Below, piece after piece: positions 4,406-48,499 of a DNA stretch of 64,000 bases. The translations under genes were made by a program, and so were the position numbers. The stretch's first letter is position 1. Each line of letters begins with the position of its first letter. A model generated the notes under the pieces. That model worked only from the letters and a program-made list of their open reading frames with translations, searched no databases and had not been told where the DNA came from. The stretch is from Naegleria gruberi (Eukaryota): assembly GCA_000004985.1 (NCBI GenBank), contig GG738933.1; one strand, written 5' to 3'.

Positions 4406-4478
4406 GCCGACATAGCTCAGTTGGGAGAGCGTAAGACTGAAGATCTTAAGGTCCCTGGTTCGATCCCTGGTGTCGGCA
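4406..4478 (+). tRNA. tRNA-Phe (anticodon GAA)
   Basis: 73-nt cloverleaf. Acceptor GCCGACA/TGTCGGC plus discriminator A; D-arm GCTCAGTTGGGAGAGC; anticodon loop CTGAAGA; variable loop AGGTC; T-arm CCTGG-TTCGATC-CCTGG. One T/T mismatch in the T-stem relative to canonical Phe tRNAs. Confidence 0.8.
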
Positions 4479-15228: not shown

Positions 15229-17392
15229 TTAAGGATCTACGTTGGCAGATTTGAAAGAACCCAATAATGGAGATTCGACAAGTTTAGTTTCACTTAGTTT
15301 TCTTTCTAACATTCGAATTTTAGCTTGCATGTTTAGAATAGTTTTTCCACTTTCTCTATTTTCAACTGCCTTTCTCAAATCTTTAAGGAATGCAATTCTA
15401 AACTGTGCTGTCAGTGTCGAATTTGCAGATCCAACAAAAGTTGCAGATAATGGATCTTGAAGTTTCATATTTCTTACACGAATGTCAGCTCCCAAATCAA
15501 TTAGTTTCGTACAAATATCCTTTCTTCCAAGTTGTGAAGCTACATGAAGTGGCGTATCACTACTCAAATTCTTTTGATTCATCATGACATGAACATCCAT
15601 AGACGAATCTTCTGACATGTACGAAATGGCTATTTCCAACATTTCAACTCTTCCATAACCAGAAATCCAATGCAACATGTTATTCTTGTTCTTATCTCTC
15701 AAATTGGCAAGTTTTTGTCTATCAGAATAGAAATGATTCAAAATCCATTCGAATATTTGATCACAACCTTGTTTGTTTCCAATAGTTCTGATGGCAAACC
15801 AAATTGGTTCGTTCATGGTGATGGTTGTGTTGGTGGATGGGAAGGTTGGTTTGAAATCATAGTTGGAAATGAGTGATCCCAAAAAGTCTAATGTCTTTCG
15901 GCTAGTTTCTTGCTTGTCAGTACACAATAACATGCACAAGGTCAGTAAATTGTGAACTTCTTCCCGATCTTCCTTTGCTGCACACGATGTTGATGGACTT
16001 GAAACACCAAAACTTGAATCTAATCCATGTCTATTTCCAAATAAAGCCTTATTAACCATTGGATCAGATGCCTCAATTGAGCTACCATTGGAAGATGACA
16101 TTTTACAAGTGGCATTCATGTTAGCTCCTCGAGAAATCAAGAAGTGAGCAATATCAAAGTGACCTCTCAATATAGCCAAATGTAAAGCACTTGGAAAATC
16201 TCTACGTGATTGAGTTTCTGATTCTCTTGCTTCAACATCAACTTTGACTTCATCAATTAGATATTTGACAACATTGAATGCACCACCGAGAACTGCACTT
16301 GTCAATGGAGTATGATAATAATTATCCACATGAAGATTAACATCAATATTTGACTTTTCCAGCATTTTCTTGACGAGATGTAATCTGTTATATTTACAGG
16401 CATAGTTAATGAGAGAAACTCCTTGGTGGGTGATTCTGGCAAGTTGATCACCAGTGAGACCCATCTTGTCAAAGATGAAATCCATGCACTTGTCGTTTAA
16501 TTCTTGCTCCTTTTGGACAGTTTCGAATGATTTGGACGAAAGGGAATTATGAGGTGTACTTGTAATGATTAATTTGAACATTAACAAGTACATGTTCTTC
16601 TTACATCTTGGATCGAGATTTTCATGTTGGAGAGAAATGACACTAGATTCGTATTGAGTTTCGTATTCGTCTTGTAATCGAATAAGTTCTCTAAATAATT
16701 CTTCACTTTCATTGAAGAAACAGGCTGTGTGAATTGGTTGTAAACCTCTTGAATTGGTTCCAAAAAGGGATTTCTTGACAAGATCTTTGACTGATGGCAT
16801 TTCTTCTGATTTGAGAGTTTCTAATTTTTGTAAAGATTCGATTAATGATTTGAGGATTTTAGATTCTGCATTTGGAGTTTCACAAAGCAAGTGAACAATA
16901 TTACCATCATCAAGATAACTTGACAAGCCTTTGATCATTATTGGAAAACATGAATATTCTGTATAAATTTGCAAGTACTGATTATTCGAAAGGTAATACG
17001 AAAGTCCACTACAATCATTCTCATCAAAATAATCTCTCAGCCTCTCTGTCATCTTTTTGGTAACATATCTTTCATCCAAATTCAAAGCATACGAAGGATT
17101 AGTCTCCAAAAAAACATCAATCATCTGTTTGACAGTCTTATTAAACGAAAGGTTTGAATTCGGCAATTGTTCACCAGTTGTTGGATTAGTCTGACGTCTA
17201 ACTAACCATTCTTCAATAGCCTCTCTTTCAAAAGTATCACCAAGAGCAGTGACAACTGGATCACACATTATTCTTCTCGTAATTGGACAATATATCAAAT
17301 CTTTGATTGGATTCGAATCTGTTTGTTGCTGACCAAGTGATGGACTATTCATTCCTAAAGCAGGGCTGTTGCGATTTGACATTCTTTGTGTT
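15229..17392 (-). CDS. U-box E3 ligase-like protein with ankyrin repeats (about 720 aa from ATG 17392; the tool's upstream GTG start is rejected)
   Basis: U-box: IKDLIYCPITRRIMCDPVVTALGDTFEREAIEEWL. Ankyrin-like repeats: HLAILRGHFDIAHFLISRGANMN and TPLHVASQLGRKDICTKLIDLGADI. Confidence 0.75.
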
Positions 17393-17707
17393 GTTTTTTT
17401 TGTGTCGATTAATTTGATTAACAGCTGACAGTTCCTTACCACTCATTATTTATAACAAACACACAAACAGTTGCAGTTAGCATGAAAAACGCTCGATGAT
17501 GTGCTTGTGCAAACAAGTTTAAGTGGCAAGTAGAAAATGTGATGGAGAATTGAGAAGGTTGCCCTTTAAGGCAATAACAATTTTGGCGGGAAAGTTTGAT
17601 GTGAGGTGAAGTGTTTGCCTAGACAAAATGTATTGAGGTGCGTCGAGTTGTTTCTTGTTGATTTTAAAAGGCTTGTTAGAGGTGGGTATCTATCAGAAAT
17701 CAAAGAT

Positions 17708-17757: not shown

Positions 17758-20700
17758 CTATTTCTCACTTCGTTTGTAAATAGGTTTTGAATCAATTTGA
17801 TAAATAAGGAAGGCTCTTCCAATAAATTTGGAAATAGCAGCTTGGATCTCTGGCCATTTCTTTAAGACGTTATGGTTGGGGATCTTATCTATATATTCAT
17901 TCTCAAAAAAGGTTATGCCTGAGTGATGGAAATATAGCACATATGAGTATTGGAAAGGAATTTCTTGGATAGGGGAGAGTGAACACTCAGGTCTATCAAG
18001 TATTTCTGTTAATCTATTTTGACAATATCTTCTTTGATTGTCTAGTCTGGGGCATTCATGTATGTAATGTTCTAAATTTGAGGGACAATTACAATCTGAG
18101 CAGGTTGGATTCAATTCATCTTTCTTCTGTGTATATTTGATATGAGAATTTGAAGCGTTTCGCCAAATTTGATATTTGGTTTTAGGTGACAGTCGTGACT
18201 TGAGGTAGGCTACATTAATTGATGACCAGCTTTGGTTTGGAATAAAGTTGGGATTACTATCAATTGCTTCGTGCATCTCCTTAAGTTGGCGATTTACAGT
18301 CATTCTTTTGCAATCAAAGATCACAATATCGTTTTTCATAAGTAAATATTGGTTGGTTAGTAAGGATTTGATATCAAAGATCTTATCTCTTTCAGTTCCA
18401 TCTTTCGCAAGGCGATCTACTATTATATTTTCCTTATCTTCATGTCCTTTAACTTTGATTATATAAACTGAAATATTCTTTTCTTTTTGGATATTGAAAA
18501 ATTCAGTTTTGAAAGGGAGAAAGTTTCCTTTGTATTTTCTGGATAGGACATCTATTGCAACTTTGCTATCTGTGTGTATTCTAGCGGTTGTTCCATTTGG
18601 AAGTAGTTTCATTGCAGTGATAATTGCTCCTATTTCTGCAACATTGTTAGAGTATTCATTATTGATACGGAGTGAAAGGCTTTTACAAGGTGATAACCTT
18701 CCACCGGATTCATATATATTAATACCCATACCTGTTTTACCTGCAAGCTTGGATCCGTCTGTATGGATAATAAAGCATCTATTGGTTTCATTCACTTTCT
18801 TTAATCTGAATTTGGTATGATTCTTTTTGAAATCTAAATTATATTTCTGAAGTATTGACATCCATTGAATGAAAATGTTATTACTATTATCATTGGTATG
18901 ACTAATTCCAAATTTAAAAGCTTTCTGAACTAACTTGTTATTGGAATTTGCTATTAAGGAGAGAGTTCTTAAATTAAGTCTGTCTGTAAATTCTTCAATT
19001 GAGGGAACACCGAGTCCACCTTCTTCTAATGGTAGGTGGAAAAAAGCTGTTTTGGTGGTTCTGTCTAGTTTTAACTTTGTTCTGAGTACATTTCTAATGC
19101 AAATATCTATTCTTGATACCAGTGATGGAGGAATGACATTAAGTTTGGATAGATGTGTAAATAAACTAATCACTTTAGCATGAAGGACTTGTCTTAAATT
19201 ATGGGGTTGAAGTTTGAGTATTGGGAAATATTTCAGTGATTCATTGAATTTAGCTATCTTGCTTTCAATATCTTCTTTGACCAATTTATCTTCCCAAGGG
19301 TAGTGTCCGAGAACTCTAAGATTTTTCTGAATGGGAATTGGCACTTGTTTGATTTTTGGTATGATTTTGCTTTTTGTGGGAAGGAGAGTGGCAATTGACT
19401 TTTTTGCATTTAATTTGAAAAGCAATTGAGATAACCAGTCGTCGATGTTATCTAGTCTTCCATTATAATTTGTGAATCTGTCGCATACTATATTCATATC
19501 GTCAGCGAAACAACAAAGACCAATTTCGTTTGCATTCAATTCAGATGGTTCTATTGGTAGTTGCCATTGGTCTATTGCTTTGTCTATTATGAGTTGTGTA
19601 ATACAATCGTAAATAAGAGGTGCTAATGGGCAACCTTGAGGAATTCCTCGTGTTTTTGTGAAGTTATTTGATAGATGTTTGTCAATTTCTAATTGTAAAC
19701 TGTGATTGCTGTATGCATTAATTATAAAATCAGTTAGTGGTGTTGGGAATTTACAATGATTAAGGGCCATCCTAATAACCGGCATCTCCACTGCGTCGTA
19801 GGCACCTTCAATGTCAAGGTTGACTAATATAAATGTTCTTCGTCTAGTTTTCAAGGCCAGGGAGGAAAGTACTATTCCATGGTTCATTGTATTTCTATTA
19901 TTTATGAAGGCCTGTTGTCTCATATTAATCTGAGAGCTAGCCCATTCACATAATTTGTGGGCGATTAAATTAAAAAGGATTCTATAAAATATTGGTAGTA
20001 TTGTGATGGGTCTAATATCTCCTAATGTTTTAACTTCTCGCTTTGGAATCAGTTTAACCCAACCGTGTTTCCATTCTTGGGGGATATCTCCTTGTGTTAA
20101 ACATTTGTTAAACTCTTCAACTATTAAAGCTAATTTCTCTAATTTTAAGCCCTTGATGATATCTAATGAAATTTCGTCTTGTCCTGGTGTATTCGATTTC
20201 ATTCTTTTAATGGTTTCTTTTACATCTCTATATGAAATCCGACCTATATCTCTAGGACCTGAAGTGATAGTGGATGGACTTGGCATAAAGGTTGGTGTTT
20301 GATTGGAGGTTGTAAACTTTTTGGAAAAATAATCTAAAATTTCTTGTTCTCCAAATGGCAATTCTTTCCAGATAATTTCTTTAGAATGCAGTTTTCTATC
20401 AAATTGATACATGTGGGAGGCGTGACTATTGTTATATTTGTCAGTTAATTGTTCTTTGATTTCTTTACATGATTGGATGTGAGTCTCTTTAAGAATTGTT
20501 TGTAGTTCTGATATTTCATCAAGTCCAACATTTGGGTCTTCTAATTTACCCATAATCTTATTTTCTAATTTACGAATTTTACCTTTAAATATGGAGGAAA
20601 TAATGCTACCACCAAGTCTGTCAACTTTGGTTCCATATTTTGCAATGTTGTTTTGTATTTCTGCATTTAATTCTTGAAATGTATTGGCATTTGACGTATT

Positions 20701-21486
20701 TATCTCTTTGATCATTTCTTCTCTTTTCTTCTTACCAATATATGATCTCCAATTTAAATGTGATTTGAATTCAATATCAATGTAAAAAGGGATGTGATCA
20801 TTACTTGTGAGCGGTGGAAGGAGTTCTTCTTTGATAACCTTAATATCTTTAGACACGAAAATGTGGTCTAATCTTGAAGTGGTGATTCTATTCTGTTGTC
20901 TTCTAATGTAAGTCTTATTATTAGTCTTATATTCTGTTAGTTGGAGTAGATTAAATAGCCAGCACCATTCTTTATCTCTACCGTTTGAAGGATTAATGGT
21001 ATTGATATTAAGATCTCCATTAATTATGACATGTTCATCTCTACATGTCAGTACTGCATTTGTTATACTGTTCATGGCTTCAACATCATTTTCTTTATCA
21101 TCAACTCTTCCACTAAGATATGGAGTGAAAATATTAATTGGTATACCTTTGCTTTCGAATCGTGTCCATTGAAGAACACCTGGAATTAGATTGATATTAG
21201 TAATATTTCTCTTGTGAGGGTTGTTAAGGAAGTGCATAACAGCCGTCCCTTTTTTTCCTTTCGTTGTATTCATTAAGGAGTTAAATAATATATAGCCTGT
21301 TCCTGAATTTTTAACTTTATATTCTAGATCAGGAGTATTTAAATGAGTTTCGGTTAACGAAATCATGTGTATTTTATGATGAAGACACATTGATTTCACT
21401 TCTGGTGTAACCGATTTCTTACTAGCATGTTTATACAGGCCGTTTACATTGTAACACGCTAGTCGTAAATTACTATAATTACTCAT
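17758..21486 (-). CDS. retrotransposon ORF2: APE-type endonuclease, reverse transcriptase, RNase H and a C-terminal Cys/His motif, 1242 aa
   Basis: N-terminal LRLACYNVNG...ISLTETHL (EEP/APE). RT motifs including FADDMNIVCD. RNase H: IIHTDGSK...AEIGAI...HTDSK...KVKGHEDKENI..D.LAK. C-terminal CSDCNCPSNLEHYIHECP. Confidence 0.9.
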   Translation of the reverse strand: MSNYSNLRLACYNVNGLYKHASKKSVTPEVKSMCLHHKIHMISLTETHLNTPDLEYKVKNSGTGYILFNSLMNTTKGKKGTAVMHFLNNPHKRNITNINLIPGVLQWTRFESKGIPINIFTPYLSGRVDDKENDVEAMNSITNAVLTCRDEHVIINGDLNINTINPSNGRDKEWCWLFNLLQLTEYKTNNKTYIRRQQNRITTSRLDHIFVSKDIKVIKEELLPPLTSNDHIPFYIDIEFKSHLNWRSYIGKKKREEMIKEINTSNANTFQELNAEIQNNIAKYGTKVDRLGGSIISSIFKGKIRKLENKIMGKLEDPNVGLDEISELQTILKETHIQSCKEIKEQLTDKYNNSHASHMYQFDRKLHSKEIIWKELPFGEQEILDYFSKKFTTSNQTPTFMPSPSTITSGPRDIGRISYRDVKETIKRMKSNTPGQDEISLDIIKGLKLEKLALIVEEFNKCLTQGDIPQEWKHGWVKLIPKREVKTLGDIRPITILPIFYRILFNLIAHKLCEWASSQINMRQQAFINNRNTMNHGIVLSSLALKTRRRTFILVNLDIEGAYDAVEMPVIRMALNHCKFPTPLTDFIINAYSNHSLQLEIDKHLSNNFTKTRGIPQGCPLAPLIYDCITQLIIDKAIDQWQLPIEPSELNANEIGLCCFADDMNIVCDRFTNYNGRLDNIDDWLSQLLFKLNAKKSIATLLPTKSKIIPKIKQVPIPIQKNLRVLGHYPWEDKLVKEDIESKIAKFNESLKYFPILKLQPHNLRQVLHAKVISLFTHLSKLNVIPPSLVSRIDICIRNVLRTKLKLDRTTKTAFFHLPLEEGGLGVPSIEEFTDRLNLRTLSLIANSNNKLVQKAFKFGISHTNDNSNNIFIQWMSILQKYNLDFKKNHTKFRLKKVNETNRCFIIHTDGSKLAGKTGMGINIYESGGRLSPCKSLSLRINNEYSNNVAEIGAIITAMKLLPNGTTARIHTDSKVAIDVLSRKYKGNFLPFKTEFFNIQKEKNISVYIIKVKGHEDKENIIVDRLAKDGTERDKIFDIKSLLTNQYLLMKNDIVIFDCKRMTVNRQLKEMHEAIDSNPNFIPNQSWSSINVAYLKSRLSPKTKYQIWRNASNSHIKYTQKKDELNPTCSDCNCPSNLEHYIHECPRLDNQRRYCQNRLTEILDRPECSLSPIQEIPFQYSYVLYFHHSGITFFENEYIDKIPNHNVLKKWPEIQAAISKFIGRAFLIYQIDSKPIYKRSEK

Positions 21487-23123
21487 TTAGAAAGAGTACA
21501 AGATGATGAGCTTTTTGATTCTTCATCATCTTGCATAATAGAATTATTAGTACTATTATTTATATAATGGGAGATTTTGTCAATAAGTTCCATTGTATCA
21601 GCTAATGCTTTCTTAAAATCACGCAGTTCAGTTTCAATATTAGATAGTCTAGTTTCAAATAGATTGGTTGTTGTATTAATAGTAGGAGTAACTACAGAAT
21701 TAGTGGTTGAACTGGTATTATCGTTAGATTGTATAGGATTGATCATAGGATTAGTTACTTCCGGTAATTTAGAGTTAGTTAGAAATGGATATTGTTTTTG
21801 TTTTCTTTCAATTATTTCATCTAATTGTTTAATAGATGGTACGAAACAGTAACTGGTTCCATCAGTAATGTTTTGTTTGGTATTGAGAACAATTTTCTTG
21901 TCAATAAATAGATTCATTTCGTCAATATTTGAATGGACGACTTTACATAATTTAAAGGTAGTGGTATTGGATTTGTTTTTGGATTCAGTTATCATGCATT
22001 GGTTAGTATTGAAATCTTTTTTAATGCGTTCGTATACACGAGTAACACCATCGATGATTTCCTTGTTTGTAAAGGTAGGTGGAAATAAACATTCTGAAAC
22101 ATTAGTAGGAGTTTCATTACGCAATTGTTCAACAGATTTGTAATTAGTTAAATTAAGCTTCTTTCTAATAACTTCGCACACATCTTCGTTTTCGTATGAA
22201 ACTCTAATTATATATTTACCATGTGATTGGTTTGTATACATTTGGGAGATAAGTATAGTATTATCGTTATTAACTGAGTGTTTGATTAGTGATTTAATCA
22301 TATCAATGTGTTGTGAATATATGTGTGTAGAGTGAGTTAGAGCGTACAAGCTATGCTCGAATACAGCAGGTGATGGGAAGAATTTCAATATTAAATCATT
22401 GTGTACACTATCAAGCATATCTTTGCAAAGAATATAATTGTCATTACTATTGCAATGAAGATTAATGACATTACTAGTTTGGGGTCTTATTTTAATGGTG
22501 GCAAATTCCCCAAAGATGTCCATAATTTGTTCCATGAATTTGTTATTAATTCTTTCATAGCAGATAATATTAAGTGAATGTGTCAAATCGAATTTCTTAT
22601 TTTGCTTGACTGGTTTTTTACCATAGAATGAAATTGAGCGTTTCATTTTGATTTGTTTTGCTATAGTTTGTTTGATACTTGGTTGAGCTTTTATAGGGTG
22701 ATACTTCACCATATCCAAATATGGAGTAAGTTGTAGTTTGGTATTTTGCTCAATAGGGTTCTTACTACATTCATATTTTGGTTTAATATTACTAGTAATG
22801 GAATGAATTTGTTGATTTCTATTTTGGGGAGTTGACTTAATATTTTGGATTTCTGAAGTAGGTTTTTTAAATGAATCAGTAGAAATGTTAGTGGTAGAAG
22901 TATCTTCTTGATTAATATTATCAACTTTAACCTTTACATCTTTGTCTTGTACAAACTCGGATTTAAACATTATTTTGTCGTAAATCTTTTGCATAGTTTC
23001 CATGTATTTTTGAAGACGAATATTTTCAATCCGATATGAATCGACTGCTTGTTCTAACACAAGAATCCTGTTAGTCAGCTGCAGACAATTTATTGGATCA
23101 GGAGGGCGGTCATGTAAAGGCAT
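21483..23123 (-). CDS. retrotransposon ORF1 protein, 546 aa, N-terminal coiled-coil-like region
   Basis: ATG at 23123. Its TGA stop overlaps the ORF2 ATG (ATGA). No CCHC knuckle recognised. Confidence 0.75.
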   Translation of the reverse strand: MPLHDRPPDPINCLQLTNRILVLEQAVDSYRIENIRLQKYMETMQKIYDKIMFKSEFVQDKDVKVKVDNINQEDTSTTNISTDSFKKPTSEIQNIKSTPQNRNQQIHSITSNIKPKYECSKNPIEQNTKLQLTPYLDMVKYHPIKAQPSIKQTIAKQIKMKRSISFYGKKPVKQNKKFDLTHSLNIICYERINNKFMEQIMDIFGEFATIKIRPQTSNVINLHCNSNDNYILCKDMLDSVHNDLILKFFPSPAVFEHSLYALTHSTHIYSQHIDMIKSLIKHSVNNDNTILISQMYTNQSHGKYIIRVSYENEDVCEVIRKKLNLTNYKSVEQLRNETPTNVSECLFPPTFTNKEIIDGVTRVYERIKKDFNTNQCMITESKNKSNTTTFKLCKVVHSNIDEMNLFIDKKIVLNTKQNITDGTSYCFVPSIKQLDEIIERKQKQYPFLTNSKLPEVTNPMINPIQSNDNTSSTTNSVVTPTINTTTNLFETRLSNIETELRDFKKALADTMELIDKISHYINNSTNNSIMQDDEESKSSSSCTLSK

Positions 23124-33200: not shown

Positions 33201-33458
33201 AACAAATCATTCTGCTGCAACGGATTTAAATTCGACTTGTCTCAAAAACTAAATATTGAGATAAAAATTTTGTAAAATCTATTTAATTTATAACTTTTTC
33301 CACATTTTTGTTTTTTTTGCTAGAAGATAATTTGATGATTTAAATATTATGAACTTTACAATATTTAAATAGTTATTGTAAAAATATTTAATAATTTCGG
33401 ACAACAATAATCCAAAGAGGAGATGACAATGAGACGTGCACATTGACCAACACAAAAA

Positions 33459-36343
33459 ATGTCCACTAGTGATGGCATAATGTCATCATCATCATCTTCC
33501 ACTCCTAACAACAATCTTTCCCTCATCACCACAAACAACATCAACCCCAACAACAATACCATCCCTAGTACCATTTCCAATAATAACAATACCATCAATG
33601 CATCTTCTTCTTCATCTCCACTGCAATTCTCTCCTTCCAATGCTTCATCTTCATATTTCCCGCGCACTCATTCTCAAACTCTTCTTGAACAACAGCAAGA
33701 ACAATCATTAAAAAGAATACAAACGAGTGGTGTTGCTGCTACCGGGCAAGGAAATAGTAGAAATTCTTTAGAGGGTGGTGTGTTTGCCAAGACTACGAGC
33801 AATAGCAGTAGTAATAGTCTGAGTGAGCAGAGTACTATTGGAAGTTTGAGTACGAGTGGTAGTTGTTATGGAGGAAGACAATCATTGGAAGGAATTCAAT
33901 ATCAACAAACAATTATGAATAATAATAGTAATAACATGAATAATAGTGTAAATAATAATAGCAATAATAATAATATGAATATGAATAATAATTCTAGTGT
34001 GGAAGGAGAGAGAAGGTCCATCACTCTCAAAAGGCAAAATAGTAATAATAATAATAACAAGGATGATGAAAATATATCAAATTCAATTTCATTGGATAGG
34101 ATTGTTGATAATGATACTCATCATGGTCATCATCATCATGTAGATTTTCATATTGATGATGATACACATCATCATTTTGAAAATCCCTTGCTCATGATGA
34201 GTAAGATGAATTCAATGCCGAGTATTGAGAGCAATCTTTCGAGGGTAGCTTCATCAGTACCTCTCAATGCTGGATATCATTCCGACATCGATTCTGTGGA
34301 GGAACCACACAAAACAAGCCATCCTGCTCAATTCTTTGATCAACAATGTTTTATGGAATGGAAGAGTATCACCTTTCCGATGGGATCTCCAAAGCCAATT
34401 TTGAAGAATATTAATGGCTTTGTTGCTCCAGGTAAATTGACTGCAATTTTAGGACCTATGGGTATGTTTTGGGTTGTGAAAATTAATTATCAATTTATAA
34501 CAATATCAATGAATTTCAAATATTCATCACAAAAATAATTAATTACAAAGGAAGTGGAAAATCGACACTACTGAGAATTTTATCTGGACGAGGAGCTAGG
34601 ATTTATAGTGGAGATATTTATATTAATGGACAACTTGCAATGAATAGTGAGAAACAGTTCATTCGTATTGACTCTGGTCGATTCAAATCCCTAGTTTCCT
34701 TTGTGGCTAAAGATTTTACACCTTCTAACATGTCTCTAACTGTTAAGGAAATTTTACAATTTGCTGTGAGACTGAAATTGCCATCCAAATCTCAAAATCC
34801 ACTTTGGACAACAAGAGACGATCGTCTGGCATTACTATTATCGAGTTATGGATTGAGAGGTAAGGAACATAGTCTTTATTCTTCTCTCTCCTCTGGAGAA
34901 AAGAGAAGACTTACTATTGCCGTGCAGAATGTTCTCTTCCATAGAATTGTCTTGTTGGAATATCCTACAGAGTTTATGGAATTTGGTGAATCATTCCTAT
35001 TATTGAAAAGAATGAAAAAATTGGCTGATTTGGGAGTTTCTATTGTTGTATGTTTGCACAAACCTTCAGTGCAAGAGATTGAAATTTTTGATTACGTATC
35101 AATTTTGAATAAGGGAAGACAATTATATTTTGGTAGACCTACAGAGATTGTCACCTATTTTAATACAATTGGAGTGAGATTTCCTCATGATAGACAAAAC
35201 ACAATAGCAGCTGTTTTGGAGCTATTGCTGCTGAGTGACATGTACAATTCGAACAATGAGGATGATAAAAAGTATGCAATCAGACACATGACCGAAACCG
35301 AGCTAAAGAGGGTCGACACTCTCGATAAGGAGTATGAAGAAAAGCTGGATGAATATTACATCCCTCAAAAACATAGGGAAGAATTGCCATACTTACAAAA
35401 TACCATAGAATCCATTCAAACAGAAAAGTACTATTCGAACTATTGGTTTTCAATACTGATTCTGTTACAAAGAATTTACACTGTCAAGTTTAGAAATTGG
35501 AAGACTGAAATATTGTCACCATTATTGGAAAAGGTTATTATTTCAGTAGTAATTGGAATTCTCTTCCTTCAAATCGATCCAACTAATATGAGTATGAAGG
35601 GTAAAATATTCTCCTTCTTGAATTTGAATATTTCGCTCACTTTTGGTCTTGGATTGAAAACACTTGTTGGACAAATACCCAACCTAATGCAGGAACGAAA
35701 TTCGACCAGCTATCGGGTTAGTGCATTTTTTATTGCAAAATCTATTGAGGATACTATTGATTTTACCGTTTATCCAACAGTATTTGGAATTATAGTTTAT
35801 TTCATGTGTGGATTGGACTATGATCCAGGAAGAGTTTTCAGTTTCATCCTGATTTTTGCTCTGTTCAATTTGACTTCAATGAGTGTTGCTCAAGCTCTCG
35901 TCTCTCTAATTCCTGTCCCTTCATTCTTGAACTTTATTTCACCTGTAATCAGTTTGGTATTTATTCTCCTCTCTTCTGCTTATGGTATTACTAAGACTGA
36001 TTATATAACTTGGATGGGATACTTCTCGTACCTGTATTACGCTTTCAGAGCATTGGCAATCAATGAATTCAAAGGAGATATCATTGACATTCCACCAAAT
36101 CAGAATGGAACAATTATCATTCCATCAGGTCAATACACCAATGGCACTCTCTTCTTGGAAAAGGCATATGGAATTACTGAACCATACTACATGATGTGGA
36201 TTTATACAGCCATTCTCTTCTTGTACTTTATTTTTTGTAAGATATTGGCATATATTGGATTGAGATTTGTCTATGGAAAGAAATCACCCAAGAGAACATT
36301 GAAGAATATTCTCTCCCATTTCAAGACTTGTTGTAAAAAATAA
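33459..36343 (+). CDS. ABCG (White)-type half-transporter, NBD then TMD, with a long N/S/H-rich N-terminal extension. 2 exons: 33459..34461 and 34551..36343
   Basis: Walker A GPMG|SGKST is split by an 89-nt GTATGT..ACAAAG intron. ABC signature LSGGEKRRLTIA. Six hydrophobic TM segments of the ABC2 type follow. Walker B, D-loop and H-loop are degenerate (see findings). Confidence 0.85.
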
Positions 36344-36400
36344 ATATTTCTTTCTTCAACAGGAATTAATTCCCGCCAAATACTGAAAAAAAATACCAAA

Positions 36401-38656
36401 ATGCAATCAGAGCCTTTAACGTATCAATTTTTTAATCAGTGCATTGATCTGCGGAGGGAGGATGATAAATTCTTCATGATTGATCTTTCCGATGCCGATA
36501 ATATTGTTAAACGATTGGTCTTTAATATTATTGACAATAATGTGGAGACTGGATATTCGGTTGAACATTTGGTGTGGGATTGGGAGAGTGATTTGATGAA
36601 TCAATTGTTGGATGGAACGAAGAGACCTATCAGAGCTTCTGCTAGGTATATAACCATGAAGAATAGATGTTGTTCTGGAGAGTATTGTCATTTCATGTGG
36701 AATGGTGTCGAAACATTTGATGAAATGTTACTTTCTCCAGTGCCAAAAGCTAATGAGAAGGGATCTGCATTTGTTGGTGATGGTGAATTATTGATGATTT
36801 CCACAAGTGAAGTTCCATTTATTGAGAGAGGAAAGAGCAAAATTTTCACAATGGAGAAATGTACTGAGGTGCCAAGTGTCACATATAACACGACTGATTT
36901 TTGCACTGTTATTACCATTCCATGCAGTAATGTTTTGGAACGAGATTATTCATTGACTGCCTTTTATGCAAGTTCAAATGTTTTTTTATTTGATTTGAAG
37001 AGTGACAAGTTTTCAACTACACCAATTCAATTCATTCATCCAGACAATTTATTTTACTTTAAAGAGGCATTTATTGAATCATGCATTGTTCCATACTTGG
37101 AGGGGAGTAGAATGAGAGTTTTTGTTTGCCAAAAAGAAAGATTATTTGAATTAGTTTGGTCTGGAGAGGAATTTAAAAGTCCACTACAAATGATTAGACA
37201 TTTAGAATTTGTCCAATCAGTGTTTTCTATTACAAGGATGGACAATATTGGTCTTTTAGTTAGATCTAAAGATATTAATCAGAAAATTCAATATCATATC
37301 TATGAACCAGAACTATACAACTCCAATCAATCTCAGAAGGAAGGTATTTGGAGATTTATCACAAATGTTGATGGAAATCTCTCCTCATATCTGTATGCTC
37401 CAAAATCAAAATCACTTGTCTATAGGAAGGGCATTGAGTATACCAAATATTTATCGTTTGAGGAAATTATGAAAATGCCTTCTAATAGAATTAGAGAAGT
37501 TTTTGATGAAGAGAATTTTGAAAAATTCAAAGAATACGATGCCTCATTTAATGTTTACACACCACGTTGTAAAAGTAAAGCCATTGAAAAGGTTACCTTT
37601 GTTAAACCAAACCAGAGAATCAATGAGGCCTATCAAATCAAATTAGAACATATAGACCATATTGAAATAGTTGCAGGAATTAATTGTAAGGAGTTTGCGG
37701 AGAAACTTGGACAATTTATTTCAAAGGACTATGTGGAATTGACTCCAACAGACTTGGCTGATTATCTTGGAGCTCCATTAGTCTACCTCCATAAATGGGG
37801 AGGAAATAATTTAAGTCATGAATACTTTATTAGAGACATGCAATATCACAAAAGAACTAGCTCAGTTATTGAGCTAGGTAAATGTTTAAATGGGGGACTA
37901 GGAGGAAGTACAACAGACATTTCAAATCTCACATTCCTTGGAATCGTACAAGGTAAGCCATTTGATAGTTCTGAGGAGGATAATGCAGTTGAAGAAGAAG
38001 AAGAAGCTGAATATCAACAATTGTTTAAAAATACGCAATTTCGAATGGAGTCCAATACAATGCTCGCTACTGATCCCTTCCTTTCGGATGGTGGCGTTTA
38101 TTTTGAAAATGTAAGGGAAGGTCTGTGGCAATGGAATACCACAAACAAGCAACAGGGTTATTGTGATGGCGGATATTTCGACCCTAATGTTACTGCTCAA
38201 TTTGTTGCTGTACACACTGATTATTTGCATCTACTCAATACATCAAATATTTGGCTAATACCCAAAGATAGAACTGAAGAGTATGGTGGTGAGTATAACA
38301 GAAATGAATACCTTAATTATGAGATGGAGGGAGGATGGTTCCAAATGAGGTTGGGTGTTTCCTCAGATTGTGCAGTTGTTGGTCTATTTGACCAAAAGTA
38401 TTTTAATGATGAGAATGTTTTACCTGCCAGTAAGGTTAGACAAAAAAGTCTTCTCGAAGCTAATTTCAAGTTATGCTATGAACCTCCATACCAAGAATAT
38501 CTCACAAAGAAAATGGAGGAAGAAGGATTTCCTGATAAAATGGAAATGCCTTATGGTATCATTACATCATCAGGTTATGGAGATGGCTATTATCCAACAT
38601 TGTTCAAAAAATCAGAGAAGGGAGATGTGATTGCTGTCAAGATATTCTTTGCTTAA
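36401..38656 (+). CDS. hypothetical protein, 751 aa; starts only 58 bp after the ABCG stop on the same strand
   Basis: accaaaATG start; long clean ORF; no recognisable domain. Confidence 0.6.
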   Translation: MQSEPLTYQFFNQCIDLRREDDKFFMIDLSDADNIVKRLVFNIIDNNVETGYSVEHLVWDWESDLMNQLLDGTKRPIRASARYITMKNRCCSGEYCHFMWNGVETFDEMLLSPVPKANEKGSAFVGDGELLMISTSEVPFIERGKSKIFTMEKCTEVPSVTYNTTDFCTVITIPCSNVLERDYSLTAFYASSNVFLFDLKSDKFSTTPIQFIHPDNLFYFKEAFIESCIVPYLEGSRMRVFVCQKERLFELVWSGEEFKSPLQMIRHLEFVQSVFSITRMDNIGLLVRSKDINQKIQYHIYEPELYNSNQSQKEGIWRFITNVDGNLSSYLYAPKSKSLVYRKGIEYTKYLSFEEIMKMPSNRIREVFDEENFEKFKEYDASFNVYTPRCKSKAIEKVTFVKPNQRINEAYQIKLEHIDHIEIVAGINCKEFAEKLGQFISKDYVELTPTDLADYLGAPLVYLHKWGGNNLSHEYFIRDMQYHKRTSSVIELGKCLNGGLGGSTTDISNLTFLGIVQGKPFDSSEEDNAVEEEEEAEYQQLFKNTQFRMESNTMLATDPFLSDGGVYFENVREGLWQWNTTNKQQGYCDGGYFDPNVTAQFVAVHTDYLHLLNTSNIWLIPKDRTEEYGGEYNRNEYLNYEMEGGWFQMRLGVSSDCAVVGLFDQKYFNDENVLPASKVRQKSLLEANFKLCYEPPYQEYLTKKMEEEGFPDKMEMPYGIITSSGYGDGYYPTLFKKSEKGDVIAVKIFFA

Positions 38657-45430: not shown

Positions 45431-48189
45431 TCATTGTTGGTTTCCTTTATTCAATCTTCTCATAATCTTAACCAACAGTTTGGGTGATACATGCTCAAAA
45501 GCTTCGTCTGGGTAGGTTTGCAAAATGATTGTGGCATATTTGCTGGCAAACTCTACCAAATGTTTTCCAAATAAAGTTACAAACTCGTCATTTTGATTTT
45601 CCTCTCTAGAATAACAGCTTGCCATCAATATAAAGCTCTCCACTGTGATATAACCCTCAATAGAATTAATAATATGATTTGATAATTCTGGAAATCCAAA
45701 TATCCGCGACAAGTTCAGCAAGGGAAGTAAAAGATGAACTGGAGGATCTTCCCACAACCCATAACAAAATTTGAGTAAAATTGTGCAAATCTCCATCAAG
45801 GTATTTGGATCTATAGTTTTCCCATCAATACCATTAAGTTTTGCAATTTCTGGCTGTATGCAGTGGATCAAATTGAAATTTGTAGCGTGTATCATGGCTT
45901 TCAATTCAGAAAGTAATGAACAACGTGAACAAATAACTGTCTTGTGTAGTCTCATATGTTTTTCCTCGGTTAAGAATATATTAATGTCAGTATTTACAGC
46001 ATTGTAGTGCAATTTTTGAAGAGCAATACGAACGTTTGGCTCACTCACAGGATTCAATATTGGAATGTTGAGCTTGAATTTTGATAATTGATCGGCAGAG
46101 AGGAAGAATTTGAACTTGTTCAGCCTTCCAGCAAAGCAAATATGATTTTCACCATAGCATCTAACAATATCAAAACAATACTTTAGAGCATAGTGAAGCA
46201 ATGCGTCGTCAGCTATTTGGACTTTCTCGTACAGGCATTCTATAGTTGTACTAATGTTAAGTGGTGAAAGCTTGTCAATTAGAATATTTACAAGACAACT
46301 CTTGAGCTGAATAAATGTATCTCTGAAAAAGGATAATACATAGATGATTTCCACAATCTCCACAGTATCCAGAGTCATTATTGGTTTGGAATAGAGTAGA
46401 ATATCTATCAAATTCTGCACATGTTTTAAATTGGATTCCTTATCATCTTTGACTAATTTTTCTAGAATTGATACAAAATCTGGTGCAATAAAGGGAAGAA
46501 TTGGGCCAAATGCTATACACTGCAATCTATCGTTAAAGTCCTGACTGTATTTGTGCAGAGGTATCGATGAATATCTACTAGAAGGAGAGTAGTATACCAT
46601 TGGATTATTATCTTTGCATACTACACGATTAACATAAAAATTACCACTAGTGTCCACAACCTCAAACACTGATCTCTTCTTTTCTCCACAACAAACAACT
46701 TCATGAAGACATGTTATAGCAAATGTACAATTTTTACCACTCGAAAAATCAATAAAAGGAATTCTCGAAGGAACCTTTTCAAAAGCTTCTCTATTGTTAA
46801 AATCTCCCAAACCTAGCTGTCCACACGAATTATCGCCACATACCCACAATTCTCCCATACTATTGAGAATGCATGTATTTGTCGTGCAGTCGATTTTTTG
46901 AATCGTGCCATACGTCCAGTTAATAACATTGGCCCCTGTTGTCATTGTTTGTTTACATGCAAGCTGTCCCAAATTGTTATTACCTCCCAAGACCAATTTT
47001 GTAGCTCCTTCTGCTGTTGTAATATGAACTACATAATGTTCCAATCCTAGATGAAAGTTTTCCACTCGATCATTCTTGGCTATATTTTCCAAGACCATAA
47101 ATTCATTAGTTACACTAGTTTTCAAATAAATATGATTATTTTCAGTTAGAAAGGCAACATGGCCGTATCCAACAAATATTCTCTTTGGAATAATGTTTGG
47201 AGTTGGTAGGTCTTTCTTGGGCACTTTGGTAAATTTTCCAACACTGAAAGAAGCCCAAATTTCATCCTCTGTCGACAGGTAGTACCTAGTAACACCTCTT
47301 CCCTCTGCAATAATTTTCGGAGTAAATGGAAGAGTAATCTTTTTCAAGTTTTTCAAATCATTGTTCAATTCTTCCGATGAAATTGGAGTGCACTCAAAGA
47401 GCTCATTCTTAATTGTTTGAAGAAATATATAGGAAGAACTGTAAATTTCCTTAATTTCCTCTCCTTTTAAGATTTGTTTCAGGTTGACACTTCTATTAAT
47501 GGTTGGTCTACTTAGCCCTTTCAGTGTTTGTTTGGAACAACACATGATTGTGAAAGGACGTTCCAAATCATCAACTACCAATTGATTACTATTTGTATTT
47601 ACACCATTCGGATCCGAATCATCAGCTGTAGAGAAGGACGGAATAACAACATTCTGTCTTCCTTGTGAATTTTCTGATTTCATTTGGGAAGAACTGGACA
47701 AGATTGGACTCGAATTTGCTTCCACACCTCTCCTCGAAGAACTCCCTAGCGAAGGAGAACCATTCATCAGTACAGGACTGCTCACTGTAGTTGTTGCTGC
47801 TGATGTTTCCTTCATCTTCTTTGATGGTGTGCTGCTCTCCAATCGTTCTTGATGATTATTACTATTATTATCGGATGATGATGAAGGCAAGGATCTCTTT
47901 CTTGTATTCTCATGATTATTAAAAGAAGGAATAACAACAGGGGGAGTGTTATTAACTACAGCAGAAGTAGACGGAAGAATAGAAGAGGCTGATGATGAAG
48001 CCTTCTTCTTCTTTTCCTTTTGATGATCAATAACACCAATAATTTCAACACCCTGCGAGGATGAACAAATCTCATCGACATCATAATCGTCCAAATTAAT
48101 ATCTAACTCATCTTCTTCATCTTCCAAATCAATTGTTGCTATAGGAGTTTGTGATTTTGTATTATTTAGTGATGATGAATGTGGTAGCA
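45431..48189 (-). CDS. RCC1-like repeat and BTB/POZ domain protein (RCBTB/IBtk-like architecture), about 919 aa from ATG 48189
   Basis: S-rich N-terminus. RCC1-like LGGNNNLGQLACK and VCGDNSCGQLGLGD. C-terminal BTB-like segments, e.g. the region containing HATNFNLIHCIQPEIAKL and the LLKFCYGLWE block. Confidence 0.7.
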
Positions 48190-48499
48190 TCTCTTTATCC
48201 TCCAACCTATTTAGTTTAATAGTAGCAGTACAACAACACAATAACAAGCCTGGAAATTACATGAGCGGCAAGGAGAACTAGCCGTTGCTTATTTTTGTTT
48301 GTTTTTTTATTAAAATTTTTTTAAATTCAAAAAAAATATCAGTACAATTGTCTTCCACTTCTTCGTCTCTTGATTGTCAACATGTATTAGCTTACTAGAA
48401 GAAGTTTGCAGATTGGGATGTACTTTTGACATGATTCTCTTGTTGGAATTTTACCTTCTCAATTTTGATGTTTGTTGTTATCATCAAGATGGCAAATAA

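What the first reader, a model, noticed from the sequence alone, without database searches (positions are those of the whole stretch)
34880..35080. ABCG nucleotide-binding domain with degenerate catalytic motifs (Walker B DEPT replaced by EYPT)
Against ABCG2 (ILFLDEPTTGLD...SIHQPR), this protein reads RIVLLEYPTEFMEF...CLHKPS. The Walker-B Asp is Glu, the catalytic-base Glu is Tyr, the D-loop (TGLD) is EFME, and the H-loop Gln in HQP is Lys. Walker A (GPMGSGKST) and the signature LSGGEKRRL are intact. A homodimeric half-transporter with these changes would have two hydrolysis-deficient sites. That suggests a non-canonical, possibly regulatory or channel-like, ABC protein.
Basis: seen in the sequence. 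Interest (0 to 1): 0.55.

Follow-up and report, generated by a model that had tools for sequence, protein, structure and literature searches.

The report
Naegleria ABCG transporter lacking ATPase residues
This Naegleria gruberi gene encodes a membrane transporter of the ABCG type that keeps its ATP-binding residues but has lost those needed to split ATP; related amoebae, including the pathogen N. fowleri, keep the same altered version under selection, so ATP probably acts on it as a switch rather than as fuel.

Summary
The core observation is real. The window is Naegleria gruberi, and the gene (33459-36343, two exons, 931 aa) is the annotated 'predicted protein' NAEGRDRAFT_82264 / D2W3R6.

Aligned to ABCG2:
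- Walker B Asp210/Glu211 are Glu471/Tyr472.
- The D-loop TGLD is EFME.
- The H-loop HQP is HKP, with the His kept.

- The signature is LSSGE, not LSGGE, so it is degenerate too.
- The LLEYPT codons lie at 34952-34969, not 34954-34971.

Two further losses were missed: the Q-loop Gln is Lys, and the ABCG NPxDF motif is gone.

This is neither a sequencing error nor decay. A second strain has identical motif codons, with 14 synonymous and 0 replacement changes in exon 2. All nine relatives share the degeneracy: three N. fowleri and two N. lovaniensis proteins, a second N. gruberi paralogue, two unnamed metagenome proteins and one from Willaertia magna. NBD dN/dS is about 0.09. Canonical ABCGs in the same genomes keep every motif. 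None of 302 other ABCG NBDs has Tyr at the catalytic position.

The defects do not follow the complementary pattern of ABCG5/G8 or PDR transporters. I therefore favour a self- or paralogue-dimer with two non-hydrolytic ATP sites. That mechanism is inferred, not shown. It is a new variant of a known kind.

The parts
33459..36343 (+). Whole gene: ABCG half-transporter, 931 aa, NAEGRDRAFT_82264 / XP_002669027.1 / UniProt D2W3R6 (Naegleria gruberi)
   Evidence: Spliced translation is an exact match to the annotated protein. Pfam ABC_tran + ABC2_membrane.
33459..34461 (+). Exon 1. The first ~291 aa are a low-complexity Asn/Ser/His-rich N-terminal extension. It is followed by the start of the NBD.
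   Evidence: All indels against the second strain are multiples of 3. The equivalent region in the paralogue clade evolves fast, dN/dS 0.47.
34462..34550 (+). Phase-1 GT..AG intron that splits the Walker A Gly335 codon (GPMG|SGKST)
   Evidence: The same intron position occurs in the N. lovaniensis orthologue L004.
34551..36343 (+). Exon 2: rest of the NBD, the linker and the transmembrane domain, including the stop codon
   Evidence: 14 substitutions against strain contig L001, all at third codon positions. The 12 from 34640 onward are shown to be silent.
34452..34567 (+). Walker A GPMGSGKST (aa 332-340), canonical, with Lys338 and Ser339/Thr340 kept
   Evidence: Lys-Ser/Thr is kept in every family member whose sequence covers the motif.
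34709..34711 (+). Q-loop position: Lys388 in place of the conserved Gln (ABCG2 Gln126)
   Evidence: alignment. Lys in all family members with the region. 246 of 302 other NBDs have Gln.
34886..34900 (+). Signature LSSGE (aa 447-451). The first Gly of SGG is Ser449. Ser448 and Gly450 are kept.
   Evidence: The family has S-S/T-G, except P0007. 201 of 302 other NBDs have SGG.
34943..34969 (+). Walker B RIVLLEYPT (aa 466-474). Glu471 replaces the Mg-binding Asp. Tyr472 replaces the catalytic Glu.
   Evidence: The AF2 model puts IVLL in a beta strand, as expected for Walker B.
34970..34981 (+). D-loop EFME (aa 475-478) in place of S/TGLD
   Evidence: The last residue is Glu in all Naegleria members and Asp in 289 of 302 other NBDs.
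35051..35068 (+). H-loop CLHKPS (aa 502-507). His504 is kept. Lys505 replaces Gln.
35198..35212 (+). Position of the ABCG NPxDF motif, here NTIAA. Only the Asn is kept.
   Evidence: Canonical heterolobosean ABCGs mostly have NPADF/H/Y at this position.
35453..36277 (+). Transmembrane domain (Pfam ABC2_membrane aa 636-841, continuing to the last predicted helix at about aa 909)
   Evidence: Whole-chain TM-score 0.73-0.79 to ABCG2, ABCG5 and ABCG16. In the paralogue clade the TMD is 93% identical, dN/dS 0.07.
36137..36148 (+). TNGT in the loop before the last TM helix. It is an invariant N-glycosylation-type sequon in the family.
   Evidence: Invariant columns T573 N574 G575 T576 in alignment A2.
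36329..36334 (+). Cys-Cys pair in a basic C-terminal tail (..KTCCKK). Present in six of the seven family members whose sequence reaches the C-terminal tail (absent in P0007 and in P0008).
   Evidence: Alignment A1. Any function such as lipidation is only a guess.

Best explanation
The gene encodes a functional member of a subfamily of ABCG half-transporters found only in Naegleria and Willaertia.

Its nucleotide-binding domain keeps the parts that hold ATP:
- Walker A Lys and Ser/Thr.
- An aromatic Trp at the A-loop position.
- The signature Ser and second Gly.
- The H-loop His.

It has lost the parts that split ATP and couple that step to Mg2+:
- Walker B Asp->Glu.
- Catalytic Glu->Tyr.
- Q-loop Gln->Lys.
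- First signature Gly->Ser.
- D-loop Asp->Glu.
- NPxDF lost.

The Walker B defect and the signature defect sit on the same chain. The most likely assembly is therefore a dimer with itself or with a paralogue, in which both composite ATP sites are non-catalytic. ATP binding and release, not hydrolysis, would then close and open the NBD dimer. The strongly conserved membrane domain would act as a nucleotide-gated facilitator or as a regulatory or lipid-handling device, not as a primary pump.

Shown: motif homology, conservation, purifying selection, retained ABCG fold, and misfit to the classical asymmetric pattern.
Inferred: ATP binding, lack of hydrolysis, dimer partner and what crosses the membrane.
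For: - Motif homology to ABCG2.
- The exact gene model is annotated in N. gruberi.
- A second strain at 96.5% nucleotide identity has 14 third-position and 0 replacement changes in exon 2, and identical motif codons.
- All family members with the region share Glu at the Walker B Asp position, a non-Glu residue at the catalytic position (Tyr, Asp or Ala) and Lys in the Q-loop. All but P0007 have an S-S/T-G signature. This includes Willaertia magna P0032.
- dN/dS between N. fowleri and N. lovaniensis paralogues is 0.094 for the NBD and 0.069 for the TMD.
- Canonical ABCGs in N. gruberi, N. fowleri, N. lovaniensis, Willaertia and Acrasis all keep Gln in the Q-loop, SGG, Asp-Glu and HQP, and most also match GPSGAGKT[ST] and NPAD.
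- AF2 model with pLDDT 85.8 and pTM 0.80. Foldseek TM-score 0.73-0.79 to ABCG2/G5/G16/G25.
- In 48 Glu-less NBDs of two-NBD ABCGs, the own signature is SGG in 45, the partner signature is non-canonical in 48, the own Walker A Lys is lost in 43 of 47 and the own H-loop His is lost in 47. The family shows the opposite on three of these four features. Only itself or a paralogue supplies the non-canonical signature that the rule predicts for the partner.
- Precedent: a single D-loop mutation turns TAP into a nucleotide-gated passive facilitator (PMC4242082, as summarised in PMC7756269).
Against: - There is no biochemical evidence for ATP binding, ATPase activity or oligomeric state.
- In my reading of the literature, every characterised ABC membrane protein with a degenerate site keeps one active site.
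- Ser for the first signature Gly is a mild change and may still support hydrolysis in trans. LSSGE and ISTGE also occur in 5 of 302 other NBDs that have a canonical Walker B.
- The retained H-loop His, and Asp at the catalytic position in the P0005/P0006 clade (LEDPT), could allow slow hydrolysis.
- dS between the compared species is near saturation (1.1-1.5), so dN/dS values are approximate.
Confidence: 0.5

Rival explanations
1. It is the non-catalytic subunit of an obligate heterodimer with a canonical ABCG half-transporter, as in ABCG5/ABCG8 or a PDR pump split into two genes. One site only binds ATP. The other site, made of the partner's Walker A/B and this protein's LSSGE, hydrolyses ATP and drives transport.
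For: - Canonical half-size ABCGs exist in the same genomes: N. gruberi P0187, N. fowleri P0184, N. lovaniensis P0192 and P0201.
- Known ABC proteins with degenerate sites keep one active site (PMC7756269).
- ABCG5, a working subunit, has the similar signature ISTGE.
- Q-loop Lys recurs in the dead NBD1 of PDR-type full-size ABCGs, in 11 of 12 cases.
Against: - The pattern is not complementary. In 48 of 48 Glu-less NBDs of two-NBD ABCGs the partner signature is non-canonical, and in 45 of 48 the own signature is SGG. Here the own signature is altered and all candidate partners have ISGGE.
- With a canonical partner, neither site would be fully canonical.
- No ABC gene lies next to a family member in five loci.
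- The family is only about 23-28% identical to canonical ABCGs and has lost NPxDF and the D-loop Asp, which lie at NBD contact and coupling regions.
Confidence: 0.27
2. It is still an ATP-driven pump that hydrolyses ATP slowly by an unconventional route. That route would use the retained H-loop His as linchpin, Glu471 for Mg2+, and Tyr472 (or Asp in the sister clade) positioning water.
For: - The H-loop His is invariant in all Naegleria members, and the Walker A Lys is kept.
- The Asp->Glu change at Walker B is conservative.
- The clade with LEDPT simply swaps the two acidic residues.
- From my own knowledge, not checked here: some ABC ATPases keep residual activity after Glu mutation.
Against: - Four motifs that act together in catalysis are changed at once.
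- The catalytic position varies within the family (Tyr, Asp, Ala), and the Willaertia member has also lost the His (MQQPT). This looks like a position released from catalytic constraint.
- ABCG2 E211Q and the equivalent ABCG1 and ABCG25 mutants are used as hydrolysis-dead traps in solved structures.
Confidence: 0.18
3. It is a sequencing error or a decaying pseudogene with no function.
For: - Many catalytic motifs are lost.
- The gene is annotated only as 'predicted protein'.
Against: - Intact 931-codon reading frame with a conserved intron position.
- Identical motif codons in an independent assembly of another strain, with 14 silent and 0 replacement changes.
- The same substitutions are conserved across two genera.
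- dN/dS is about 0.07-0.09 in the NBD and TMD.
Confidence: 0.01

Closest known systems
Human ABCG2 (BCRP) and other homodimeric ABCG half-transporters (ABCG1, AtABCG25, AtABCG16)
   Same: - NBD-then-TMD order.
- ABC_tran + ABC2_membrane domains.
- Same predicted fold (TM-score 0.73-0.79).
- Best sequence match in the PDB, E=3e-44.
   Different: - Only about 22-24% identity.
- Walker B Asp-Glu, Q-loop Gln, first signature Gly, D-loop Asp and NPxDF are all replaced.
- No Cys in the last extracellular loop.
- Long low-complexity N-terminus and a basic Cys-Cys tail.
ABCG5/ABCG8 sterol transporter
   Same: - A half-transporter with a naturally degenerate ATP site.
- The ABCG5 signature ISTGE resembles LSSGE.
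   Different: - In G5/G8 the defects are split between the two chains, so one site stays fully canonical. Both chains keep Asp-Glu in Walker B (PMC7756269).
- Here one chain carries both the Walker B and the signature defects.
- No adjacent partner gene was found.
Degenerate NBD1 of full-size PDR-type ABCGs (Pdr5, Cdr1 and protist relatives)
   Same: - Loss of the catalytic Glu.
- In a subset, Lys at the Q-loop position.
   Different: - PDR NBD1 normally also loses the Walker A Lys and the H-loop His but keeps a canonical SGG signature.
- This family keeps the Lys and the His and alters the signature.
- It is a single-NBD protein.
CFTR and sulfonylurea receptors (ABCC7/8/9)
   Same: ABC membrane proteins in which ATP binding at a non-hydrolytic site serves gating or regulation rather than transport (PMC7756269).
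   Different: - Different fold class (type I exporter, ABCC) and full-size.
- They keep one hydrolytic site.
- No sequence relationship beyond the NBD.
TAP D-loop mutant (engineered nucleotide-gated facilitator)
   Same: Shows that an ABC exporter with an altered D-loop can work as a passive, nucleotide-gated facilitator (PMC4242082).
   Different: - An engineered type I heterodimer.
- Not a natural protein and not an ABCG.

Membership tests
ABCG (White/WBC) half-transporter | Reverse domain order: one NBD N-terminal to one ABC-2 type membrane domain | tested here: met
   Pfam ABC_tran aa 315-474, then ABC2_membrane aa 636-841.
ABCG (White/WBC) half-transporter | ABCG-type (type II/V exporter) three-dimensional fold | tested here: met
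   AF2 model pLDDT 85.8. Foldseek top hits are all ABCG chains, TM-score 0.73-0.79, E about 1e-29.
ABCG (White/WBC) half-transporter | Canonical catalytic motifs: Walker B hhhhDE, Q-loop Gln, signature SGG, D-loop Asp, H-loop His | tested here: not met
   Glu-Tyr, Lys, SSG and Glu respectively. Only Walker A and the H-loop His are canonical.
ABCG (White/WBC) half-transporter | NPxDF motif after the NBD | tested here: not met
   NTIAA here. Most canonical heterolobosean ABCGs have NPAD followed by F, H or Y.
ABCG (White/WBC) half-transporter | ATP-driven export as a dimer | not testable with these tools
   Needs biochemistry.
Asymmetric ABC transporter with one degenerate and one consensus site (ABCG5/G8, PDR) | One NBD lacks catalytic residues | tested here: met
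   Tyr472 at the catalytic Glu position.
Asymmetric ABC transporter with one degenerate and one consensus site (ABCG5/G8, PDR) | Complementary degeneracy: the Glu-less NBD keeps a canonical signature, and the partner NBD carries the degenerate signature | tested here: not met
   Reference set: own SGG 45/48, partner non-canonical 48/48. Here the own signature is LSSGE, and candidate canonical partners all have ISGGE.
Asymmetric ABC transporter with one degenerate and one consensus site (ABCG5/G8, PDR) | Partner fused or encoded next door | tested here: not met
   No second ABC gene in the 64-kb window or within about 10 kb in L002, L003, L004 and L005. Adjacency is not obligatory, so this is weak evidence.
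Asymmetric ABC transporter with one degenerate and one consensus site (ABCG5/G8, PDR) | Physical heterodimer with a hydrolytic subunit | not testable with these tools
   Needs co-purification or multimer modelling.
ATP-gated or regulatory ABC proteins (CFTR, SUR) | ABCC type I exporter fold with a regulatory or channel function | tested here: not met
   The fold is ABCG type. The resemblance is functional only, and function was not tested.
Pseudogene | Disrupted frame or neutral evolution (dN/dS near 1) | tested here: not met
   Intact frame. 14 silent and 0 replacement differences between strains. dN/dS 0.07-0.16.

The most novel reading that the evidence does not exclude
This would be the first natural family of ABC membrane proteins with no hydrolytic site in any dimer combination.

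The invariant pair Walker B Glu plus Q-loop Lys would replace the Mg2+ ligands with a built-in positive charge. ATP would then bind without metal and without turnover, and would act purely as a ligand that gates an ABCG membrane domain (facilitator, channel, or lipid or sterol sensor).

The recurrence of Q-loop Lys in the dead NBD1 of unrelated PDR-type pumps would then reflect a general rule for building non-catalytic ABC sites.
Probability: 0.3. Interest if true: 0.75.

Novelty: new variant of a known kind. Interest (0 to 1): 0.5.

Why it matters
- ABC transporters are taken to need at least one working ATPase site. A naturally selected half-transporter family in which every possible dimer lacks a consensus site would test how far ATP binding alone can drive or gate an ABCG membrane domain. 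It would give a natural counterpart to the engineered Glu-to-Gln and D-loop mutants.
- The family is confined, in current data, to Naegleria and Willaertia. It has three copies in the brain-eating amoeba N. fowleri and no close human counterpart. That makes it a candidate lineage-specific membrane marker or target.
- The proteins are deposited only as 'predicted', 'hypothetical' or 'unnamed' proteins, and no paper found here mentions them.

Tried and rejected
- Sequencing error at the EYPT codons: rejected. The metagenome contig L001 (96.5% identical strain) has identical codons there.
- Pseudogene: rejected.
- Misalignment of motifs: rejected. The phmmer alignment to ABCG2 and Cdr1, the HMM alignment of 315 NBDs and the AF2 secondary structure agree.
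- A neighbouring partner ABC gene: none in the window by tblastn or in four related loci.
- Conserved Walker A intron as a family marker: shared by N. gruberi and N. lovaniensis. It is absent in the intronless P0005/P0006 genes, and the Willaertia intron I located lies in the membrane domain, not in Walker A.
- Locus of the N. gruberi paralogue P0007: not on record.
- Literature: four searches for Naegleria ABC/ABCG proteins or the accession numbers found nothing relevant.
- Bacterial-code ORF listing splits the gene at the intron into 359-aa and 567-aa ORFs, so it had to be spliced by hand.
- I could not read model coordinates, so the Glu471-Lys388 proximity was not measured.
Full report
**What is in the sequence**

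The window is 34% G+C and eukaryotic. The bacterial-code ORF list shows two adjacent same-strand ORFs, 33459-34538 and 34640-36343. Removing a GT..AG intron at 34462-34550 joins them into one 931-codon frame. The intron is phase 1 and splits the Gly codon in Walker A (GPMG|SGKST). This spliced protein is an exact match to an annotated Naegleria gruberi protein: EFC36283.1 / XP_002669027.1 / UniProt D2W3R6, locus NAEGRDRAFT_82264, named only 'predicted protein'. Four neighbouring ORFs match N. gruberi proteins on the same 99-kb scaffold. The N. lovaniensis orthologue has an intron at the same Walker A position.

Pfam finds ABC_tran (aa 315-474) followed by ABC2_membrane (aa 636-841). That is the reverse order typical of ABCG half-transporters. 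The first ~291 residues are an Asn/Ser/His-rich low-complexity extension.

phmmer against all PDB chains gives ABCG2 and Cdr1 at E=3e-44. The printed alignment places RIVLLEYPTEFMEF opposite SILFLD(Q)PTTGLDS of the ABCG2 E211Q chain. It places CLHKPS opposite SIHQPR. The equivalences, with exact coordinates, are:

| Motif | ABCG2 | This protein |
|---|---|---|
| Walker B Asp | Asp210 | Glu471 |
| Catalytic Glu | Glu211 | Tyr472 |
| D-loop | Thr-Gly-Leu-Asp217 | Glu-Phe-Met-Glu478 |
| H-loop His | His243 | His504 (kept) |
| H-loop Gln | Gln244 | Lys505 |

- The signature reads LSSGEKRRL, not LSGGEKRRL. The first Gly of Ser-Gly-Gly is Ser449.
- The LLEYPT codons are at 34952-34969, two bases upstream of the stated range.

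Two further losses were missed:
- The Q-loop Gln (ABCG2 Gln126) is Lys388.
- The ABCG-specific NPxDF motif is NTIAA.

Walker A is canonical. The aromatic residue upstream of it (Trp301 in ..MEWKS..) is kept across the family.

**Not an error and not decay**

A metagenome contig from another strain (L001) is 96.5% identical over 3.6 kb. In exon 2 it differs at 14 positions, and all 14 are third codon positions. The 567-residue product encoded from 34640 onward is identical, and 12 of the 14 differences lie in it. No difference falls in the LLEYPT codons. All indels in exon 1 are multiples of three.

**Relatives**

A word-indexed search of 5.8 billion proteins found close relatives only in Naegleria:
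- N. lovaniensis P0002 (60% identity) and P0006.
- N. fowleri P0003, P0004/P0179 and P0005.
- N. gruberi P0007, which is a second paralogue, NAEGRDRAFT_72648.
- The fragment P0008.

The next hits are plant and insect ABCGs at 23-28% identity.

An exhaustive HMM search of 1.84 billion cluster representatives, using the family profile, gave the same set at 675-1292 bits. It added one more distant member at 541 bits, P0032 from Willaertia magna. Scores then fell to 369 bits for full-size PDR-type proteins. In current data the family is therefore confined to Naegleria and Willaertia. A neighbour-joining tree puts the Willaertia protein at the base.

**Conservation of the degenerate state**

The motif table from an HMM alignment of all NBDs shows the following for the family:
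- Every member has Glu at the Walker B Asp position.
- Every member has Lys at the Q-loop Gln position.
- The catalytic position is Tyr (the window clade and P0007), Asp (P0005/P0006, LEDPT) or Ala (Willaertia, LIEAPT).
- The signature is Ser-Ser/Thr-Gly, except in P0007 (LGVAE).
- The D-loop ends in Glu in all Naegleria members.
- The H-loop His is kept in Naegleria and is Gln in Willaertia.
- The Walker A Lys-Ser/Thr is kept in all.

The intronless N. fowleri and N. lovaniensis paralogues give the dN/dS values below. dS is about 1.1-1.5, so the ratios are approximate but far below 1.

| Region | dN/dS |
|---|---|
| Whole gene | 0.155 |
| NBD | 0.094 |
| TMD | 0.069 |
| N-terminal extension | 0.47 |

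Canonical ABCG half-transporters from the same genomes, plus Willaertia, Acrasis and Pharyngomonas, all keep Gln in the Q-loop, the SGG signature, Asp-Glu in Walker B and HQP in the H-loop. Most also match GPSGAGKT[ST], [ST]GLD and NPAD.

**How unusual it is**

- 249 have Asp-Glu.
- 48 have Asp followed by another residue.
- One has Glu at the Asp position.
- None has Tyr at the catalytic position.

Every non-Asp-Glu case sits in a full-size, two-NBD protein. All but one of them are NBD1. Of the 36 single-NBD proteins outside the family, 35 have Asp-Glu. The 36th is a fragment that lacks the Walker B region and belongs to the same 90% cluster as family member P0008.

**Fold**

AlphaFold2 on a 27-sequence alignment gives pLDDT 85.8 and pTM 0.80. 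IVLL and SIVVCL form the strands that precede Walker B and the H-loop. Foldseek against the PDB returns only ABCG chains at the top (ABCG16, ABCG25, ABCG2, ABCG5/G8, ABCG1), with TM-score 0.73-0.79. The transporter architecture is intact.

**Which dimer**

In the 48 Glu-less NBDs of two-NBD ABCGs, the pattern is as follows:

| Feature | Reference set | This family |
|---|---|---|
| Own signature canonical SGG | 45 of 48 | altered (S-S/T-G) |
| Partner NBD signature non-canonical | 48 of 48 | candidate canonical partners all have ISGGE |
| Own Walker A Lys lost | 43 of 47 | kept |
| Own H-loop His lost | 47 of 48 | kept in Naegleria |

The reference pattern is the classical arrangement: one dead composite site and one untouched site. 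ABCG5/G8 follows the same logic. The ABCG5 signature is ISTGE on a chain with a canonical Walker B, and the review PMC7756269 describes the matching Walker A change in ABCG8.

The Naegleria family does the opposite. It keeps the Lys and the His and alters its own signature. The only proteins in these genomes known to supply the non-canonical signature that the rule predicts for the partner are family members themselves. The canonical Naegleria ABCGs all have ISGGE. With any partner, no site would be fully canonical. No ABC gene lies next to a family member in five loci.

This favours a self- or paralogue-dimer with two symmetric, non-catalytic ATP sites. It does not exclude a canonical partner, because Ser for Gly is a mild change and S-S/T-G signatures occur in 5 of 302 other NBDs.

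**Mechanism proposed (inferred)**

ATP would still bind and bring the two NBDs together, through the Walker A Lys, the Trp, the signature Ser and second Gly, and the His. Without the catalytic base, and with both Mg2+ ligands changed (Asp->Glu, Gln->Lys), it would not be hydrolysed, or only very slowly. The very strongly conserved membrane domain would then be gated by ATP binding and release.

An engineered precedent exists: a D-loop mutation makes TAP a nucleotide-gated passive facilitator (PMC4242082).

The invariant Glu/Lys pair may act as a built-in substitute for Mg2+. Outside the family, Q-loop Lys occurs in 12 NBDs, and 11 of these are Glu-less NBD1s of PDR-type pumps. That suggests a recurrent solution for non-catalytic sites. 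I could not measure distances in the model.

**Rivals**

- A G5/G8-like silent partner of a canonical ABCG (0.27).
- A slow, unconventional ATPase using the retained His (0.18).
- Pseudogene or sequencing error (0.01, refuted).

**Novelty and score**

The protein is already in the databases, but only as a 'predicted protein'. Four literature searches for Naegleria ABC/ABCG proteins or the accession numbers found no relevant description, and the accession search returned no papers at all. It belongs to the ABCG fold and architecture but fails the catalytic-motif and NPxDF criteria. It also does not fit the known asymmetric class. I rate it a new variant of a known kind, with interest 0.5. The pattern is well supported and unusual for specialists. 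The functional claim still rests on sequence inference.

Noticed in passing
window 17758-23123 (-): Apparently intact non-LTR (LINE-like) retrotransposon. ORF2 (1242 aa) carries endonuclease, reverse transcriptase and RNase H domains. It is preceded by an overlapping 546-aa ORF1 with no Pfam match.
   Followed up: partly
window 4406-4478 (+): tRNA-Phe (GAA), the only tRNA gene in the window.
   Followed up: no
window 36401-38656 (+): A 751-aa ORF with a C-terminal DUF4241 domain starts only 57 nt after the ABCG stop codon on the same strand. The N. lovaniensis orthologue has different downstream genes, so linkage is probably not conserved.
   Followed up: partly
window 36137-36148 and 36329-36334: - Family-invariant TNGT sequon in the last extracellular loop, which lacks the Cys residues seen in canonical ABCGs.
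- Cys-Cys pair in a basic C-terminal tail (KTCCKK; CGCCFAKRK and CCGKCK in relatives), present in six of the seven members that reach the tail.
- These could be glycosylation and lipidation sites.
   Followed up: no
L001 (metagenome ERZ929261) vs window 33202-36834: An environmental contig from a different N. gruberi-like strain is 96.5% identical. Differences are concentrated in non-coding DNA and in in-frame repeat-length changes of the low-complexity N-terminus.
   Followed up: yes
P0012, P0014, P0018 (legume ABCG11-like) and P0027 (Wolffia): - The legume half-size ABCGs have a non-canonical signature (LSEGQ) and Q-loop (His).
- P0027 has an LSSGE signature, Arg in the Q-loop and has lost the H-loop His (MNQSS).
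- All keep Asp-Glu in Walker B.
- Partial degeneracy of half-size ABCGs is therefore not unique to Naegleria.
   Followed up: no
window 7623-10256, 15229-17442, 45431-48247, 60248-62368: Other genes in the window:
- A PAS-domain protein.
- A U-box plus ankyrin protein.
- An RCC1-like protein.
- A DNA ligase III-like C-terminus with BRCT domains.
None is related to ABC transport.
   Followed up: no
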